A stretch of DNA of 64,000 nt from Eledone cirrhosa (Eukaryota): contig OZ024743.1 in NCBI GenBank assembly GCA_964016885.1, forward strand, positions 172,980,001 through 173,044,000, read 5' to 3'. A program made the position numbers and the translations under genes. The notes below the pieces were generated by a model that saw nothing but the letters and a program-made list of their open reading frames with translations, searched no databases and was not told the origin of the DNA. Every line of letters starts with the position of its first letter. The first letter of the stretch is position 1. Below, piece by piece: positions 3,461 through 60,770 of the stretch.

Positions 3461-4815
3461 TAAATATACATACATATATATATATACATATACATATATA
3501 TACATATATATATATACATATATATACACATATATACATACATATATATACACATATATACATACATATATGATATATATGTATATATATGTATATATAT
3601 ATATATGTATATATATATGTATATATATATGTATATATATATGTATATATATATATATATATGTATATATATATGTATATATAGATATATATGTATATAT
3701 ATATAGATATATATGTATATATATATGTATATATAGATATATATGTATATATATATGTATATATAGATATATATGTATATATATATGTATATATAGATAT
3801 ATATGTATATATATATGTATATATGTATATATATATGTATATATATATATATATGTATATATATATGTATATAGATATATATGTATATATATATGTATAT
3901 GTATATATATATGTATATAGATATGTATATATAGATATATATGTATGAAATATAAGAATCAAAGAACTGCTCAAAACATTATTGTGCTTACAGCTGTTTC
4001 CTCCAAACCGAGGTTTGGATTCTTCGGAGCAATTTATTAATGCATGGACAGTTATATGACCTCCTTTTCAGCCGAGAGACATACCAATACATATTCAAAC
4101 ATTGATACATATTCAAACATATGTATATATATGTATATATATATGTATATAGATATATATGTATATATATATGTATATAGATATATATGTATATATAGAT
4201 ATATATGTATATATATATATATGTATATATATATATATATATATGTATATATAGATATGTATATATATATGTATATATAGATATGTATATATATATGTAT
4301 ATATATAGATATGTATATATAGATATATATGTATATATATATATGTATATATATATATATATAGATATGTATATATAGATATATATGTATATATATATAT
4401 GTATATATATATATATATAGATATGTATATATAGATATATATGTATATATATATATGTATATATATATATATAGATATGTATATATATATGTATATAGAT
4501 ATATATGTATATATATATGTATATATAGATATATATGTATATATATATGTATATATAGATATATATGTATATATATATATGTATATATATATGTATATGT
4601 ATATATAGATATATATGTATATATATATATGTATATATATATGTATATGTATATATAGATATATATGTATATATATATATGTATATATATATATATATAT
4701 GTATATATATATATATATATGTATATATATATATATATATGTATATATAGATATATATGTATATATATATATATATGTATATATACATATATGTATACAT
4801 ATATATGCATATATG
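3461..4815. repeat. (TA)n/(TATG/TAGA)n microsatellite with a ~175-bp unique island at 3946-4120
   Basis: Directly visible. Confidence 0.95.
3985..4031 (-). ncRNA. Minimal type I hammerhead ribozyme (U4C core variant)
   Basis: Minus strand UGCU-CCGAAGA-A-UCCAAAC-CUCG-GUUUGGA-G-GAAA-CAGCUG-UA^-AGCA: helix I 4 bp, helix II 7 bp, palindromic helix III ACAGCUGU. Confidence 0.75.
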
Positions 4816-4819
4816 CAAA

Positions 4820-6167
4820 AGTTTTATTTAAAATTGTAGTAGATGTTTAAATAACTATAATTTACAATTATATATTTTTACCTGATTTTTTTTTGTTAAA
4901 TTTGACTTTTATGGGCAGGTGAAATTAATTAACAGGTGTAAAAGTAATAACTTTATGGATAAACACAAAAATTTAAACTTTATCTGCCTTATCTGTTAGA
5001 TTTGTTGCAAAAAAATCCAATAATGACCTAGATGCTGATTTCCATCAATTCTAGCAGTTTTCTGAACAGGTGAATTAATTAAAAATGCAGGTGTAATCAG
5101 TACACGGTTTTAGTCTTTCTCTACATTCCAGGCAAATATTTTCATTGAAAAAAATGTATAAAACCTTTTCACCGGTCAAAATAATATTGGCAATGTACTC
5201 TGTAAATGTACGGTGTAAAATTACGTAATAGAAAGTTCCCAATATATAAGTTTATACACACTTTTAAATTTTTCTGACAATATTTCAATTAATGGTCGTA
5301 CTTTGTACAGTGGGTCGTAATTTGATTCATTTCTACCAGGGGCATTTGAAGTATCAACCAGATGCAAATACTGGTTTAATTTAATGAATCTCGTTTTTGC
5401 CATAATACTAGATATATAAGGGTCACCAAACCTTATATCAGTACTCCAATAATTCCACAGTCGTGGAAATTGTTTAATACCAAACATAATATTTATGGTA
5501 AAAAACGCTTTCATTTCGGCAGAATCTGTCGGACAACATAACAGATCGGGTTTTCCGATATTAGAAATTTGTTGTTGTGCATAGCGATTTGCCACAACTT
5601 CGAAGAAAGATTGTGGTAAAAATAAAAAATAATAATCCAGTGCTTTAGCATCGGGTGGTAATGTGTGTTGTGGTCCAATATTTTCAGTAAAATCCGAAAC
5701 ATGTATCGATGTTGTTTCTTTCAACCACGTTGCTACTTTTTCAATGGTGTCAGTCAAATCTTCTCTTTCACTTTCAAAGTAACTATCATCATTATCAGAT
5801 ATATCAGAAATAAATATATCTGATTCGTTTGAAGATAAATCACTGATATTATCTTCTGTTTCTTTTTGATCTTGAATGTCGTCGGACGTAAAACCTTCAA
5901 ATTCGTTGTCGCTACTTTCGGAAGCCATGTTACACTTTCAACGTTAAAAACACGTGTTATCGCAAGTTCTTTAACTATACTAAGAGTTAATTTTCGCGCG
6001 TAAGGGCTTTATCTCGCAGTAATCTCGAATTGACGAGATTTCGATGATGTCAATGTTTATTTTTAGAAGGAAATCTCCGTGTGGTATTAAATGTCGGTTT
6101 TTGTCGGTTTGAATAAATGAAAGGGGACATAATCTTGTCGGTTTTTGTCGCTTTGAATGCTAAAGGG
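4820..6167 (-). mobile_element. Internally deleted piggyBac transposon (PGBD4-like N-terminus)
   Basis: Minus-strand end TTAA|CCCTTTAG at 6167; ORF 5221-5928 with acidic N-terminus and YWS..., RF..LNQYLH, YDPLYKVRPLI; 3' terminus not found. Confidence 0.8.
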
Positions 6168-6171
6168 TTAA

Positions 6172-57281: not shown

Positions 57282-57588
57282 ACATTTAAATAAATCTAAG
57301 GTAAAAGACTAATTGTCAATAATATCTTTTGCATTTGCATTCTTTATTCTATGTCCATACCTGCATTGTTTTGGGTTTATTATACATATACAAACGTTTA
57401 TATATGTATATATATACACACACACACACACACACACACACACACACACACACACACACACACACACATATATATATATATATATATATATATAACAAAG
57501 GAATTGTGGTAAAGAACCAGATGGACCATAACGCACCAGAGTACTCAATGCTTAGGGTAGTAGAGAGGGAAATAGGAAAAAGTATGAA

Positions 57589-57680
57589 CCCGATGGCAGA
57601 GTTCAAGCCGTTTCGACGACTATTTTTGGACTAAATTAGAATTTTTAGCCTAGTGAATAAATAGCCGAACTTGTCAAGGG
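57589..57680 (-). ncRNA. Type I HHR, U3-A8 core variant (inverted pLTR copy)
   Basis: Reverse-complement homolog of 60677-60770 with a helix III mismatch. Confidence 0.6.
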
Positions 57681-60676
57681 GGTACTTCCTTATATGAGAA
57701 GATTGTAGTTGTCAAGAAGATTGGTTAAAATTTGTTGTAAACACAAATAAGTCTATCATGGCATTTGAAGGGAGGTGGGGTGGCTGAACTTGCCTGTAGA
57801 ACAATGGAGAGTGAGTGGAGTCGGTAAAGCGTTTAAAGTGATATGTATACAGCAGATTCTAAGGATAGTGTATGAAATGGAGGAGGGAGGTTATAGAATA
57901 GGTCATTCTAATGAGAGTAGGAGACAATAAAAGATAATAGAAATAAATAAAAAAATATATAAAATTAGATAGTGAGAAATGAATAAAAAAAATCACAATG
58001 CTATCTTACAATTACAGGTTAATAAGTTGAGAATAGAAAAAAATTGTAGAAATGGAGTAGTAACAAAACTGATACAAAATTAAAGGGGTCTAACATTCTA
58101 TCTTAAAATTACAGGGGTGGGGGCACTGATGCTACAGAGGCCCGATGGGCTGCATTGGGGTAGGCGAAAGAGGAAAAGCAGACGAGGATGAAAATAGAGG
58201 GTGGAAGGAAGTGATTGGATGCGACAGGAGGAAGAAGACATAGAGGAAAAGAAAAGAGATACAGCTACCTATGTAAGCTGGGGTTTCCCCTAACTTATTC
58301 GGCAAGTGGTGGAGGGGGGGGGGGTATCAGCCCATGTCTACCCACCCGGGTCGTTGTGTGGTTTGAGGGCGAGGTAAGTCCTAATCTGTGTTTGCATGCG
58401 GTTACCAGTTCGTCTTTCTTGTTTAAGAGTTGGTCCTTCGAAAACAACATTTGTAATGTTTCCTCCGAACATAAGTTACACGGACGGCGTCCTCTCGTGT
58501 AAGAGTTAGCTCTGGACAGTAAGCTTCAAGTGAGATTGTAGGTTATATTATTATCTTGGAGGTCCCAGATGTGGCCCGAAAGTGTCATGGCATGTCGCCG
58601 GACCGGGTTTCGGAAAGTATGTGTTGGTAGAGCCGGGTCTTGAAGTCATACGCGGTTAATCCTATATAAGCTTTGTTGGAGGTGTCCGTAACACTCACAC
58701 CCATCACTGACCAGGAAAGAAATATCATTCTCCACGCCAGGAAGACAGTCCTACTTTTCGACAACTCCAAGTGGATAAAGAGAGCTCCCGACTCCCCCTT
58801 CGACGTCAGTATGGGCGCGACGGATACGGCCGAGGTCACAGATCTTATAGGATTATTCCTACTATTTAAACTCACCGAAATGTTTCCTGCATTCGGCGGT
58901 GGATTGTACCGGGATGATGGGCTCCTCACCCTCAAAGGGTACAACCCCAGTAGTACAGACGGGTCCGTAAACAACTAATCAACTTCTTCCGAGTCAATTT
59001 CCTGGACGTTACCCTCAACCTCAAAAATGATCGGAAACCAAACGACAACCTGCACTACACCCACCGCCGCTCTAACCATCCTAGAAACATCACCAATAAT
59101 CTGGTTAAAAAACATCTCCCTGCGCATATCTCGTTTATCCGCTAATGAGCAGATATTCGACGAACATGCGCCTCATTACAATCAGGCCCTCAAGCGGAGT
59201 GGCTTCCGGGAGGAAATATCCTTTTATCCAGCTTCCCTTAGCGGAACCAGCAGGCGACACCACCGCTCACGCAACGTAACGCGGTTCAATCCTCCCCATA
59301 ATGCCGAGGTGGCAACACCTATCGGGAAAATCTTCTTTAGGCTCCTCGAAAAACAGTTCCCATTACAACACCGCTACCACAACATAATCAACAAAAACAC
59401 CACCAAACTCTCCTACAGCACCACACCTAACTTCGCACAAAACATCCTCTCCTCAAACAACAAAAAACTCAACCCCTATGGAAGAAACAACCTAGACATC
59501 AGTGGAGAGCCGACCAGGAGGTGTAACTGCCCTGATAGATCTACGTGCCCCCTCAACAACAAATGCCGAGAACGTAACGTGATCTACCAGTGCAACGTGA
59601 GGACGGACACCTCCAACAAAGCTTATATAGGATTAACCGCGTTTGACTTCAAGACTCGGCTCTACCAACACCGACATACTTTCCGAAACCCGGTCCGGCG
59701 ACATGCCACGACACTTTCGGGTCACATCTGGGACCTCCAAGATAATAATATAACCTACAATCTCACTTGGAGCTTACTGTCCAAAGCTAACTCTTACAAG
59801 GGAGGACGCCGTCCGTGTAACTTATGCTCGGAGGAAACATTACAAATGCTGTTTTGGATGGACCAACTCCTAAACAAGAAAGACGAACTGGTAACCGCAT
59901 GCAAACACAGATTAGGACTTACCTCGCCCTCAAACAAAGATTGCGTAGGACTTACCTCGCCCTCAAACCCCATAACGACCCGGGTGGGTAGACATGGGCT
60001 GATACCCTCCCCCCACTTGCCGAATAAGTTAGGGGAAACCCCGCTTACATAGGTAGATGTATCTCTTTTCATTTCCTCTATGTCTTCTTCTTCCCCCTGT
60101 CTCATCCTATCACTTCCTTCCACCCCCTATTTTCTTCCTCGTCTGCTTTTCCCCTTTCTCCTTCCCCGATGCAGCCCATCGGGCCTCTGTAGCATCAATT
60201 TCCCCACCCCTGTAATTTTAAGATAGAATTGGCCGAATACGTTTTACTAACTACTTAAGCAGATGTGTTAGACCCCTTTAATTTTGTATCAGTTTTGTTA
60301 CTACTCCATTTCTACAATTTTTTCTATTCTCAACTTATTAACCTGTAATTGTAAGATAGCATTGTGATTTTTTTTATTCATTTCTCACTATCTAATTTTA
60401 TATATATTTTTTTTCTTTCTATTATCTTTTATTGTCTCCTACTCTCATTCGAATTACCTATTCTATAACCTCCCTCCTCCATTTCATACACTATCCTTAG
60501 AATCTGCTGTATACATATCACTTTAAACACTTTACCGACTCCACTCACTCCCCATTGTTCTACAGGCAAGTTCAGCCACCCACCTCCCTTCAAATGCCAT
60601 GATAGACTTATTTGTGTTTACAACAAATTTTAACCAATCTTCTTGACAACTACAATCTTCCCATATAAGGAAGTAC

Positions 60677-60770
60677 TCCCTTGACAAGTTCGGCTATTTA
60701 TTCACTAGGCTAAAAATTCTAATTTAGTCCAAAAATAGCCGTCGAAACGGCTTGAGCTCTACCGTCGGGG
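60677..60770 (+). ncRNA. Type I HHR, U3-A8 core variant
   Basis: UCCC-UUGACAA-G..CGGCUAUUU...AAAUAGCCG.C-GAAA-CGG-CUUGAGCUCUA-CCG-UC^-GGGG. Confidence 0.7.

What the first reader, a model, noticed from the sequence alone, without database searches (positions are those of the whole stretch)
3985..60770. About a dozen structurally diverse type I hammerhead ribozymes in 64 kb
Seen: core/GAAA/UH motifs with pairable helices I-III at 3985(-), 15839(-), 27716(-), 28957(-), 48949(+), 49226(+), 55571(+), 57589(-) and 60677(+), plus decayed ones at 32061, 49795, 51827 and 57247. Apart from the pairs 57589/60677 and 49795/51827 they are not copies of each other. Established: Penelope-like elements carry minimal type I HHRs in their pLTRs, often with palindromic helix III that allows dimeric cleavage. 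Inference: this genome hosts many independent PLE ribozyme families, several with non-standard cores (U4C, 1-nt insertion, U3-A8, mismatched 10.1-11.1 pair) that strict motif searches would miss.
Basis: partly seen in the sequence, partly recalled or inferred. Interest (0 to 1): 0.75.

Follow-up and report, generated by a model that had tools for sequence, protein, structure and literature searches.

The report
Penelope hammerheads with self-cut footprint
The hammerhead RNA motifs are real and mostly mark the ends of many Penelope-type jumping genes, a known pairing that this animal genome carries in an estimated 250,000-540,000 places; short back-to-back insertions of one family stop unusually often at the predicted cut site, which likely records self-cutting in living cells.

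Summary
All 13 listed sites are type I hammerhead motifs or their decayed copies, each with relatives elsewhere in the genome; Rfam finds none. They fall into about 12 families. Six are tied to Hydra-clade Penelope-like elements (PLEs), two to other PLE clades, one forms 422-bp non-coding tandem arrays (retrozyme-like), and three have no coding partner shown. The window is ordinary for this 3.0-Gb genome: 77 hits in 600 kb of blind samples versus 1.4 in shuffles. Heterogeneity, palindromic helix III, U3-A8, U4C, core insertion and 10.1-11.1 mismatch are all published. Corrections: 57247 is one of the youngest families, not decayed; 27716, 48949 and 57589 are damaged copies; 32061 and 55571 are relatives sharing a covarying 49-nt loop-II domain. 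The best new lead: in short head-to-head insertions of the U3-A8 family, 24 of 98 arms start exactly at the predicted cut (8-13 expected), both arms in 8 of 49 (under 1 expected). That likely records cleavage in vivo on a minority of templates; a reverse-transcriptase stall is the rival. Cleavage and expression were not tested. This scan noted the density and the domain before in this genome, and a similar junction signal in another.

The parts
3985..4031 (-). Type I hammerhead, U4C core, A.G at 10.1-11.1, 8-nt palindromic helix III; predicted cut after 3989; end of a very young Hydra-clade PLE
   Evidence: 12 other copies 100% identical; L307: tandem copies 4.2 kb apart around an 834-codon open frame
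15839..15929 (-). Type I hammerhead with a family-wide 1-nt core insertion and long helix II; predicted cut after 15844; likely end of a Hydra-clade element with a long 3' UTR
   Evidence: link to coding part inferred from L221, L209 and the window's own inverted piece; no coding hit within 1.4 kb in 0 of 44 copies
16743..17441 (+). Inverted 5'-truncated partner of the 15839 element with a Hydra-type GIY-YIG endonuclease remnant (a further piece at 20740-21812, minus strand)
27716..27749 (-). Damaged copy of an old minimal hammerhead family (extra A after A9, 4-nt palindromic helix III in the family); no PLE coding partner found
   Evidence: (0 of 29)
28957..29004 (-). Type I hammerhead, extra base after A9; predicted cut after 28963; family lies about 200 nt behind a non-Hydra (CX4CxxC linker, Neptune/Nematis-like) endonuclease
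   Evidence: (12 of 54 copies)
32061..32171 (+). Core-destroyed copy of a long-arm hammerhead family; holds the 49-nt loop-II domain at 32092-32140
48949..49009 (+). Type I hammerhead, C.A at 10.1-11.1, helix III damaged in this copy; same repeat sits in front of the Hydra-clade ORF at 61380-63311
49180..49536 (+). Near-monomer of a 422-bp non-coding tandem repeat (retrozyme-like); hammerhead at 49225-49267, U.U at 10.1-11.1, 6-nt palindromic helix III, predicted cut after 49261
   Evidence: 6 of 19 loci tandem
49795..49840 (-). Decayed hammerhead (GAAA and helix III lost)
   Evidence: one intact relative in L006
49903..51034 (+). Broken Hydra-clade RT-endonuclease coding remnant upstream of 51827
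51827..51884 (+). Decayed hammerhead of an abundant family (A6 changed, deletion in helix III)
54214..54744 (+). Hydra-clade endonuclease remnant about 830 nt upstream of 55571
55571..55686 (+). Long-arm type I hammerhead, 8-nt palindromic helix III, predicted cut after 55679; 49-nt covarying loop-II domain at 55607-55655
   Evidence: (19 of 43 copies with coding upstream)
55700..56982 (+). 5'-truncated RT and GIY-YIG coding part of a young DKG-type PLE, inserted 21 nt behind the 55571 cut site
57247..57281 (+). Minimal hammerhead, U4C core, extra A after A9, helix III of 4 palindromic bases only; intact and young; predicted cut after 57278
   Evidence: (13 of 38)
57495..58689 (-). Inverted arm of the U3-A8 element with the long tail (+103); hammerhead at 57589-57681, helix III damaged
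58670..60787 (+). Direct arm: broken Hydra-clade RT-endonuclease (58670-59923), 3' UTR and U3-A8 hammerhead at 60677-60770 with a 4-bp helix III and GUC triplet; predicted cut after 60766; short tail (+20)
   Evidence: (18 of 51)
61380..63999 (-). Near full-length broken Hydra-clade ORF (61380-63311; RWK and DKT motifs) preceded by a core-less copy of the 48949 repeat (63507-63999)

Best explanation
The sites are type I hammerhead motifs at the ends of about 12 families of (TA)n-targeting retroelements, mostly Penelope-like elements, and they likely cut only a minority of transcripts, so that most genomic copies are made from uncut RNA. Shown: the motifs, their family-wide cores, their position behind or in front of PLE coding sequence for eight families, the 422-bp tandem arrays of a ninth, two fixed 3' ends per family downstream of the predicted cut, and one short and one long end in inverted pairs. 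Inferred: the element protein cuts both strands of a TA repeat and starts reverse transcription at two internal sites of the RNA (as shown in vitro for the lizard element PAc, PMC11167929); the two cDNAs usually stop early and are joined head to head, which scatters short stubs. Inferred: palindromic helix III makes most of these ribozymes active only as pairs (tandem transcripts or two RNAs in one particle), so lone copies are probably close to inert. Inferred: where the template had been cut, reverse transcription ran off at the first base after H17, leaving arms that start at +1. Speculative: the 49-nt loop-II domain is a docking site for the element's protein or for helix I.
For: Blind sample: 77 hits versus 1.4 in shuffles; (TA)5 within 300 nt downstream for 68 of 76 versus 24% of random places; PLE coding on the same strand upstream for 11 of 52 versus 6.5%. 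Intact or near-intact ORFs between tandem or inverted copies (L307, L207). Hydra motifs RWK/RWR, DKT, CxCx5C, CxxC and CxH aligned as defined in PMC8557442 section 11; Atlas look-alikes are RT/GIY-YIG clusters. Helix III is a perfect palindrome in 41 of 77 blind hits and in 17 of 38 when it is not scored, versus 2 of 13 shuffled hits. Fixed ends +20/+103 and +47/+211; one of each in 8 of 9 inverted pairs and 36 of 48 short insertions. Arms starting at +1: 24 of 98, both arms in 8 of 49; null 7.9-12.5 and 0.2-0.9 with CpG decay modelled; C17 intact in at least 94 of 106 ordinary copies.
Against: No cleavage assay and no RNA data. Three families show no coding partner (27716: 0 of 29; 32061: 2 of 35; 49795: 0 of 1), and the 15839 link is indirect. 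Hydra ORFs hit no Pfam RT or GIY-YIG model at cut-off and no PDB chain; their identity rests on motifs and the Atlas. The +1 excess is shown for one subfamily only, on 49 of 80 pattern matches (control pattern: 16), against a null of uniform stops; a stall of the enzyme at the foot of helix III would give the same position. Many more junctions of that family fall at -59 to -26, in helix II, than at +1. The cross-family test was spoiled by TA-repeat anchors; only single cases (L246, L004) support other families. In PAc, cleavage was not needed for insertion and no RNA ends were found at the cut site (PMC11167929).
Confidence: 0.8

Rival explanations
1. The hammerhead fold is kept mainly as a structure that the element's protein binds or that stops reverse transcription; cutting is rare or irrelevant, and the +1 junctions are stalls at the foot of helix III.
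For: All ordinary copies run through the cut site. Junctions pile up in helix II, so folding alone stops the enzyme. The two youngest families carry U4C, which lowers activity in vitro (PMC3088659). PAc inserts without cleavage.
Against: Catalytic bases and the C3-G8/U3-A8 covariation are kept across some 50 clusters. The +1 peak is one base wide with a drop just upstream (15 arms at -1 to -8 versus 32-39 expected), unlike the broad helix II cluster.
Confidence: 0.3
2. Most motifs belong to non-autonomous retrozyme-like RNAs that circularise by self-cleavage and borrow PLE proteins.
For: The 49226 family and a relative form 422-bp and 482-bp tandem arrays with one hammerhead per unit and no PLE coding seen; 27716 and 32061 show little or no coding link.
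Against: Eight of about 12 families are tied to PLE coding sequence; most copies are single or inverted, with variable 5' ends.
Confidence: 0.12
3. The motifs are chance matches in AT-rich, repeat-rich DNA.
For: A relaxed descriptor gives 1.7 low-score hits per shuffled window; Rfam finds none.
Against: 55-fold excess over shuffles, family-wide conservation and compensatory changes, fixed position at element ends.
Confidence: 0.02
4. The 49-nt loop-II insert is a 47-nt GT-AG intron whose removal would tune the ribozyme.
For: The insert starts with GT and has AG before its last two bases in nearly all of 69 distinct copies, with constant length; PLE ends are known to hold introns (PMC4209133).
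Against: Its interior covaries as a helix (6 of 13 pairs with two-sided change, 0 of 500 shuffles as high for cells paired); no genomic copy without it (0 matches), though PLEs keep introns, so this test is weak.
Confidence: 0.07

Closest known systems
Minimal and atypical type I hammerheads in PLE pLTRs (Cervera and de la Pena 2014, PMC4209133; parts 1-3 of 4 read, supplements not seen)
   Same: Type I layout, short helix I, extra base between 9 and 10.1, palindromic helix III, U3-A8 families, great sequence variety, mostly single truncated copies, opposite-strand pairs.
   Different: They count about 2,000 plus 1,300 in Schistosoma, 4,000 in coelacanth and 9,000 in Xenopus; here 128 per Mb (33 per Mb with a strict descriptor), not like for like. 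G10.1-C11.1 is called highly conserved there but is found in 21 of 77 here. No long structured loop-II domain is described in the text I read.
Hydra clade of C-terminal EN+ PLEs (Craig et al. 2021, PMC8557442; section 11, passages and part of File S1 seen; File S2 with the hammerheads not seen)
   Same: RWK, DKT, CxCx5C linker, CxxC and CxH around the endonuclease E and N, (TA)n targets, hammerheads present; the clade includes Hydra-1_Obim from an octopus.
   Different: Described as a small number of families, generally under 3 kb; here many families, 3.8% of blind DNA is Hydra-type coding, and units reach 4.2 kb or more with long 3' UTRs.
PAc, Poseidon element of Anolis (Frangieh et al. 2024, PMC11167929; parts 1-2 of 4 read)
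   Same: Two reverse-transcription start sites behind the hammerhead, optional tail, both strands cut in AT-rich DNA, uncut RNA as main template.
   Different: Tails here are longer (about 80-165 nt between the two ends); they found no RNA ends at the cut site, whereas here DNA junctions pile up at it.
Metazoan non-LTR retrozymes (PMC7229834, passages; bioRxiv 10.64898/2026.07.22.740005, part 1 of 5)
   Same: The 49226 family: non-coding tandem units of 422 bp, each with a type I hammerhead.
   Different: Units contain TA tracts and a U.U at 10.1-11.1; circular RNA not tested. Axolotl has up to 120,000 copies in two families; here the number is spread over dozens of families.
Natural hammerhead core variants (Perreault et al. 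2011, PMC3088659; section 8 and passages read)
   Same: U3-A8, U4C (viroid), an insertion after A6 and U10.1.U11.1 are all on record as active, some weakly.
   Different: There they are rare single cases; here each is fixed in a multi-copy family, U4C in the two youngest.

Membership tests
Type I hammerhead ribozyme | Core C3-A9, G12-A15.1, U16.1-H17 in type I order (numbering as in PMC4209133) | tested here: met
   Present at 10 of 13 sites (3985, 15839, 27716, 28957, 48949, 49226, 55571, 57247, 57589, 60677), four with published variants; broken at 32061, 49795, 51827
Type I hammerhead ribozyme | Helices I-III kept by compensatory change | tested here: met
   Different sequences keep the helices across 52 clusters (partly circular, as the descriptor demands pairing) and between homology-found subfamilies
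Type I hammerhead ribozyme | Match to an Rfam hammerhead model | tested here: not met
   No hammerhead at gathering score in the window or at E<=10 in three stretches; 27 low rows were not shown
Type I hammerhead ribozyme | Site-specific self-cleavage after H17 | not testable with these tools
   Only indirect: junction excess at +1 in one subfamily
Type I hammerhead ribozyme | Tertiary contact between helices I and II | tested here: inconclusive
   A flank-to-loop pairing signal (0 of 300 shuffles) is at least partly an artefact of inverted junctions (L224)
Hydra-clade PLE (3985, 15839, 48949, 51827, 55571, 57589/60677) | RWK, DKT, CxCx5C linker, no CCHH, C-terminal GIY-YIG | tested here: met
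   Motifs in L307, L031, L074 and window ORFs; no tree with published members was built
Hydra-clade PLE (3985, 15839, 48949, 51827, 55571, 57589/60677) | Insertion into (TA)n | tested here: met
   68 of 76 blind hammerheads (all families) have (TA)5 within 300 nt downstream versus 24%; ends abut TA runs
Canonical EN+ PLE (57247, 28957) | RT with DKG and YVDD plus C-terminal GIY-YIG, hammerhead in the terminal repeat | tested here: met
   L207 RVT_1 E 9e-16, window GIY-YIG E 1e-6, L223 RVT_1 weak E 0.004; clade not resolved
EN+ PLE insertion structure | Tandem or inverted repeats with a tail at one end only | tested here: met
Non-LTR retrozyme (49226) | Short non-coding tandem repeats, one type I hammerhead per unit | tested here: met
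   422-bp period, 3.9 copies, 99% matches; 6 of 19 loci tandem
Non-LTR retrozyme (49226) | Expressed as circular RNA | not testable with these tools
   No RNA run available
PLE membership of 27716, 32061, 49795 | Coding element ending in the same repeat | tested here: inconclusive
   0 of 29, 2 of 35, 0 of 1 copies; 32061 shares its loop-II domain with the Hydra-linked 55571

The most novel reading that the evidence does not exclude
This genome is a natural library of several hundred thousand hammerheads in dozens of families, and its short head-to-head insertions hold a DNA record of ribozyme self-cleavage in the germ line: reverse transcriptase ran off the 5' end of cut RNA. That would be evidence that PLE hammerheads cut in vivo, with a readable rate per family, and one Hydra lineage has grown a new 49-nt RNA domain on helix II that binds the element's protein or tunes cutting.
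Probability: 0.45. Interest if true: 0.68.

Novelty: new variant of a known kind. Interest (0 to 1): 0.47.

Why it matters
Whether PLE hammerheads cut in living cells is open: activity in vitro is low, and the one reconstituted element does not need cleavage. A junction peak at the cut site can be counted from genome sequence alone, family by family, and would link core variants (U4C, U3-A8, insertion) and helix III strength to cutting in vivo. The density also means standard annotation misses a very large ribozyme set (235 Rfam hammerheads were reported for the giant squid, PMC6962438; none is found by Rfam in this window) and raises the question of how host introns tolerate them; pairing-dependent activity would explain it. 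The basic association is not new.

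Tried and rejected
Rfam scans: no hammerhead. RNA data: no RNA holder listed, so no reads were laid. Pseudoknot between the 5' flank and loop II: signal traced in its strongest case to an inverted junction; short pairings in the 48949 family and two others remain unproven. Spliced form of the loop-II insert: 0 matches. Cross-family test of +1 junctions: spoiled by TA-repeat anchors and G-run length changes, not used. Shared-extent table was blurred by microsatellites and used only loosely. 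Minimum-energy folds of single sites often do not give the hammerhead fold and always gain from dimers, so they were not used as evidence. Scrambled (non-circularly permuted) hammerheads noted elsewhere in this genome: I listed all 122 core-like words of the window with repeat counts and saw none by eye; no formal search. PDB search with the Hydra ORF: 0 hits. Lunse et al. (PMC5785218), the closest paper on small PLE hammerhead variants, is not held; I saw only its title and the review's account (PMC6765202, section 11 passages), so long-arm or core variants may already be described there or in File S2 of PMC8557442. Chromosome-scale contigs C13-C30 are not in the blind sample. Literature searches for a junction peak at the cut site or for hammerheads in cephalopod repeats listed no paper reporting them; most subscription journals are not covered. 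The host looks octopus-like from repeat content (my recall) and from scan notes; I did not test this.

Full report
Observation. The window lies on contig C4 of a 3.0-Gb animal genome with about 30 large contigs. Rfam reports no hammerhead at gathering score or at E<=10 in three small stretches covering six sites; 27 low rows of the first scan were not shown. A relaxed type I descriptor of my own found 6 of the 13 sites; 4 scored 11 or more against 0.07 in 60 shuffles. The rest were judged from family alignments. Every site has relatives elsewhere. Ten sites keep a full core; three are broken. 57247, called decayed, belongs to a family whose 40 other top copies are 98-100% identical. 27716, 48949 and 57589 have private damage in helix III. 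A fourteenth, core-less copy lies near 63550.

Is the window special? No. Sixty 10-kb stretches taken at round coordinates on contigs C1-C12 gave 77 hits in 599.8 kb versus 1.4 in shuffles, in 28 of 60 stretches: 128 per Mb, bootstrap 82-180, or about 245,000-540,000 for the genome. Seven hits come from one tandem array, inverted pairs count twice, and C13-C30 were not sampled. A strict descriptor gives 20 hits, about 33 per Mb. The window, with 4 hits in 64 kb, is if anything below average. In about 1.7 Mb of fetched DNA (not blind) 182 distinct sequences fell into 52 clusters, 23 with two or more members. Of the 77 blind hits, 65 have the usual core, 6 U4C and 6 U3-A8; 28 have a mismatch between the first and last base of helix II (9 of the 77 are better read as an extra base after A9); H17 is A in 49, U in 20, C in 8; helix III is a perfect palindrome in 41. 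Scored without helix III, 17 of 38 hits are perfect palindromes versus 2 of 13 shuffled hits, and 17 of 27 distinct even-length helix III words have a complementary innermost pair that cannot form within one strand. This favours pairing between two ribozymes; the shuffled control is small.

What carries them. PLE coding sequence lies within 1.4 kb upstream on the same strand in 19 of 43 copies of 55571, 18 of 51 of 60677, 13 of 38 of 57247 and 12 of 54 of 28957. The 3985 repeat brackets an 834-codon open frame in a 4.2-kb tandem (L307). The 48949 repeat stands in front of the ORF at 61380-63311, and 51827 behind the remnant at 49903-51034. 15839 has no coding hit within 1.4 kb (0 of 44) but is linked through L221, L209 and the window's inverted piece to a Hydra-type ORF several kb away (inferred). 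Six of these families have the Hydra-clade marks RWK/RWR, DKT, CxCx5C, CxxC and CxH defined in PMC8557442, a clade that includes an octopus element. Pfam does not recognise these proteins, but Atlas look-alikes are RT and GIY-YIG clusters. Hydra-type coding covers 22,709 of 600,000 blind bases, against 1,390 and 0 for the two other types. 57247 belongs to a DKG-type and 28957 to a Neptune/Nematis-like element; clades were not resolved. 49226 is a near-monomer of a 422-bp non-coding tandem repeat, i.e. retrozyme-like. 27716, 32061 and 49795 have no coding partner shown. 68 of 76 blind hammerheads have (TA)5 within 300 nt downstream versus 24% of random places.

Core variants. They are family-wide: U4C in 22 of 27 (3985) and 27 of 32 (57247) copies, the insertion in 24 of 38 (15839), U3-A8 in 32 of 46 (60677); totals include copies where the anchor failed. 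All are on record: U3-A8, the extra base after A9, palindromic helix III and heterogeneity in PLEs (PMC4209133); U4C, A6a insertion and U.U at 10.1-11.1 in other settings (PMC3088659). It is notable that U4C marks the two youngest families. The mismatch at 55571 is private to that copy.

A domain in loop II. 55571, 32061 and at least three more families carry the same 49-nt insert. An exact pattern for part of it matches 1,801 places against 1 for the control and does not fit the usual sequence of the 55571 family. In 69 distinct copies several unpaired bases are nearly fixed. On 16 copies picked for diversity, 6 of 13 pairs change on both sides and 90% of cells pair, against at most 46% when slid; related sequences can inflate this. 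A scan note (e1-9538832) reads the domain as two copies of one small loop; the columns fit that, and I reuse the reading. A 47-nt GT-AG intron is possible but no copy without it was found. No Rfam family matches.

How copies are made. Copies end at two fixed points behind the predicted cut: +20 and +103 for 60677, +47 and +211 for 3985. Inverted pairs carry one of each in 8 of 9 cases, including the window's 57589/60677 pair. This matches the two start sites and two-strand cutting shown for PAc (PMC11167929) and means the template was usually uncut at this ribozyme. Many very short palindromic insertions stop at -59 to -26, inside helix II, which suggests the RNA is folded when copied.

A footprint at the cut. 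Three of the alignments began exactly at +1. A genome-wide pattern for head-to-head junctions close to the cut gave 80 places (control 16), of which the first 50 were listed and fetched. One was a chance match and was dropped. Of 98 arms, 24 start at +1 and 15 at 0; both arms start at +1 in 8 of 49. A null of uniform stops with random inserts and up to 30% CpG decay gives 7.9-12.5 arms and 0.2-0.9 double cases (P 0.001 or less); arms at -1 to -8 number 15 against 32-39 (a stricter parse gave 26 of 96 and 7 of 48). This family has the one stable helix III and a GUC triplet, so it is the one expected to cut alone. The simplest reading is run-off at the 5' end of cut RNA. A stall at the foot of helix III predicts the same position and is not excluded; the null is simple; other families offer only single cases and my wider test failed. 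Such insertions are a small share of the family. I reached this before the look-up that showed a like note on another genome (e1-9978779); a second note there (e1-9153559) found the match unconvincing in its case. Paper searches listed no report of such a peak; Lunse et al. and File S2 of PMC8557442 were not seen.

Verdict. Real, and a known kind of system: PLE and retrozyme hammerheads. What goes beyond print, as far as I could read, is the density and family count, the loop-II domain and the junction peak. The first two were noted before by this scan in this genome. No cleavage or expression was tested. Interest 0.47.

Noticed in passing
window 27330-27560: A structured repeat in two diverged subfamilies (20 relatives in fetched loci) with conserved blocks and a long hairpin; one subfamily has a core-like word but the other lacks it, so it is not a type I hammerhead; no Rfam match of note.
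   Followed up: partly
window 31161-31886: Three tRNA-like copies (Ser-GGA by ARAGORN for two, Rfam for three) in an inverted and tandem arrangement forming a 530-bp palindrome; likely a tRNA-derived repeat.
   Followed up: no
L049:7421-7469, L313, L334, L335, L354: A family with the 49-nt domain whose core ends in U instead of A9 in all five listed loci, a further family-wide core variant.
   Followed up: partly
L050:1-3728; L067; L223: Other retrozyme-like arrays with periods of 482, about 467 and about 310 bp.
   Followed up: partly
L096, L133, L321, L334 and about 30 more loci: Very short palindromic insertions of the U3-A8 family whose arms stop in helix II and so lack the core's first half; any core-based count misses them.
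   Followed up: yes
L039, L304, L313, L004 hammerheads: Other long loop-II inserts (50-110 nt) unrelated to the 49-nt domain, some branched.
   Followed up: no
window 39500-44270: Helitron remnants (Helitron_like_N and PIF1 hits).
   Followed up: no
window 5221-8200 and 25377-27100: PiggyBac-like (DDE_Tnp_1_7) and hAT/SPIN-like (zf-C2H2_12) transposase remnants.
   Followed up: no
window 1304-3400 and many other pieces: RTE-like LINE with RT and a PHD-finger insert; many fragments across the window.
   Followed up: no
L210:5565-6983: A 473-codon open frame that looks like a multi-pass membrane protein, repeated in a 10-kb tandem on a small contig; not identified.
   Followed up: no
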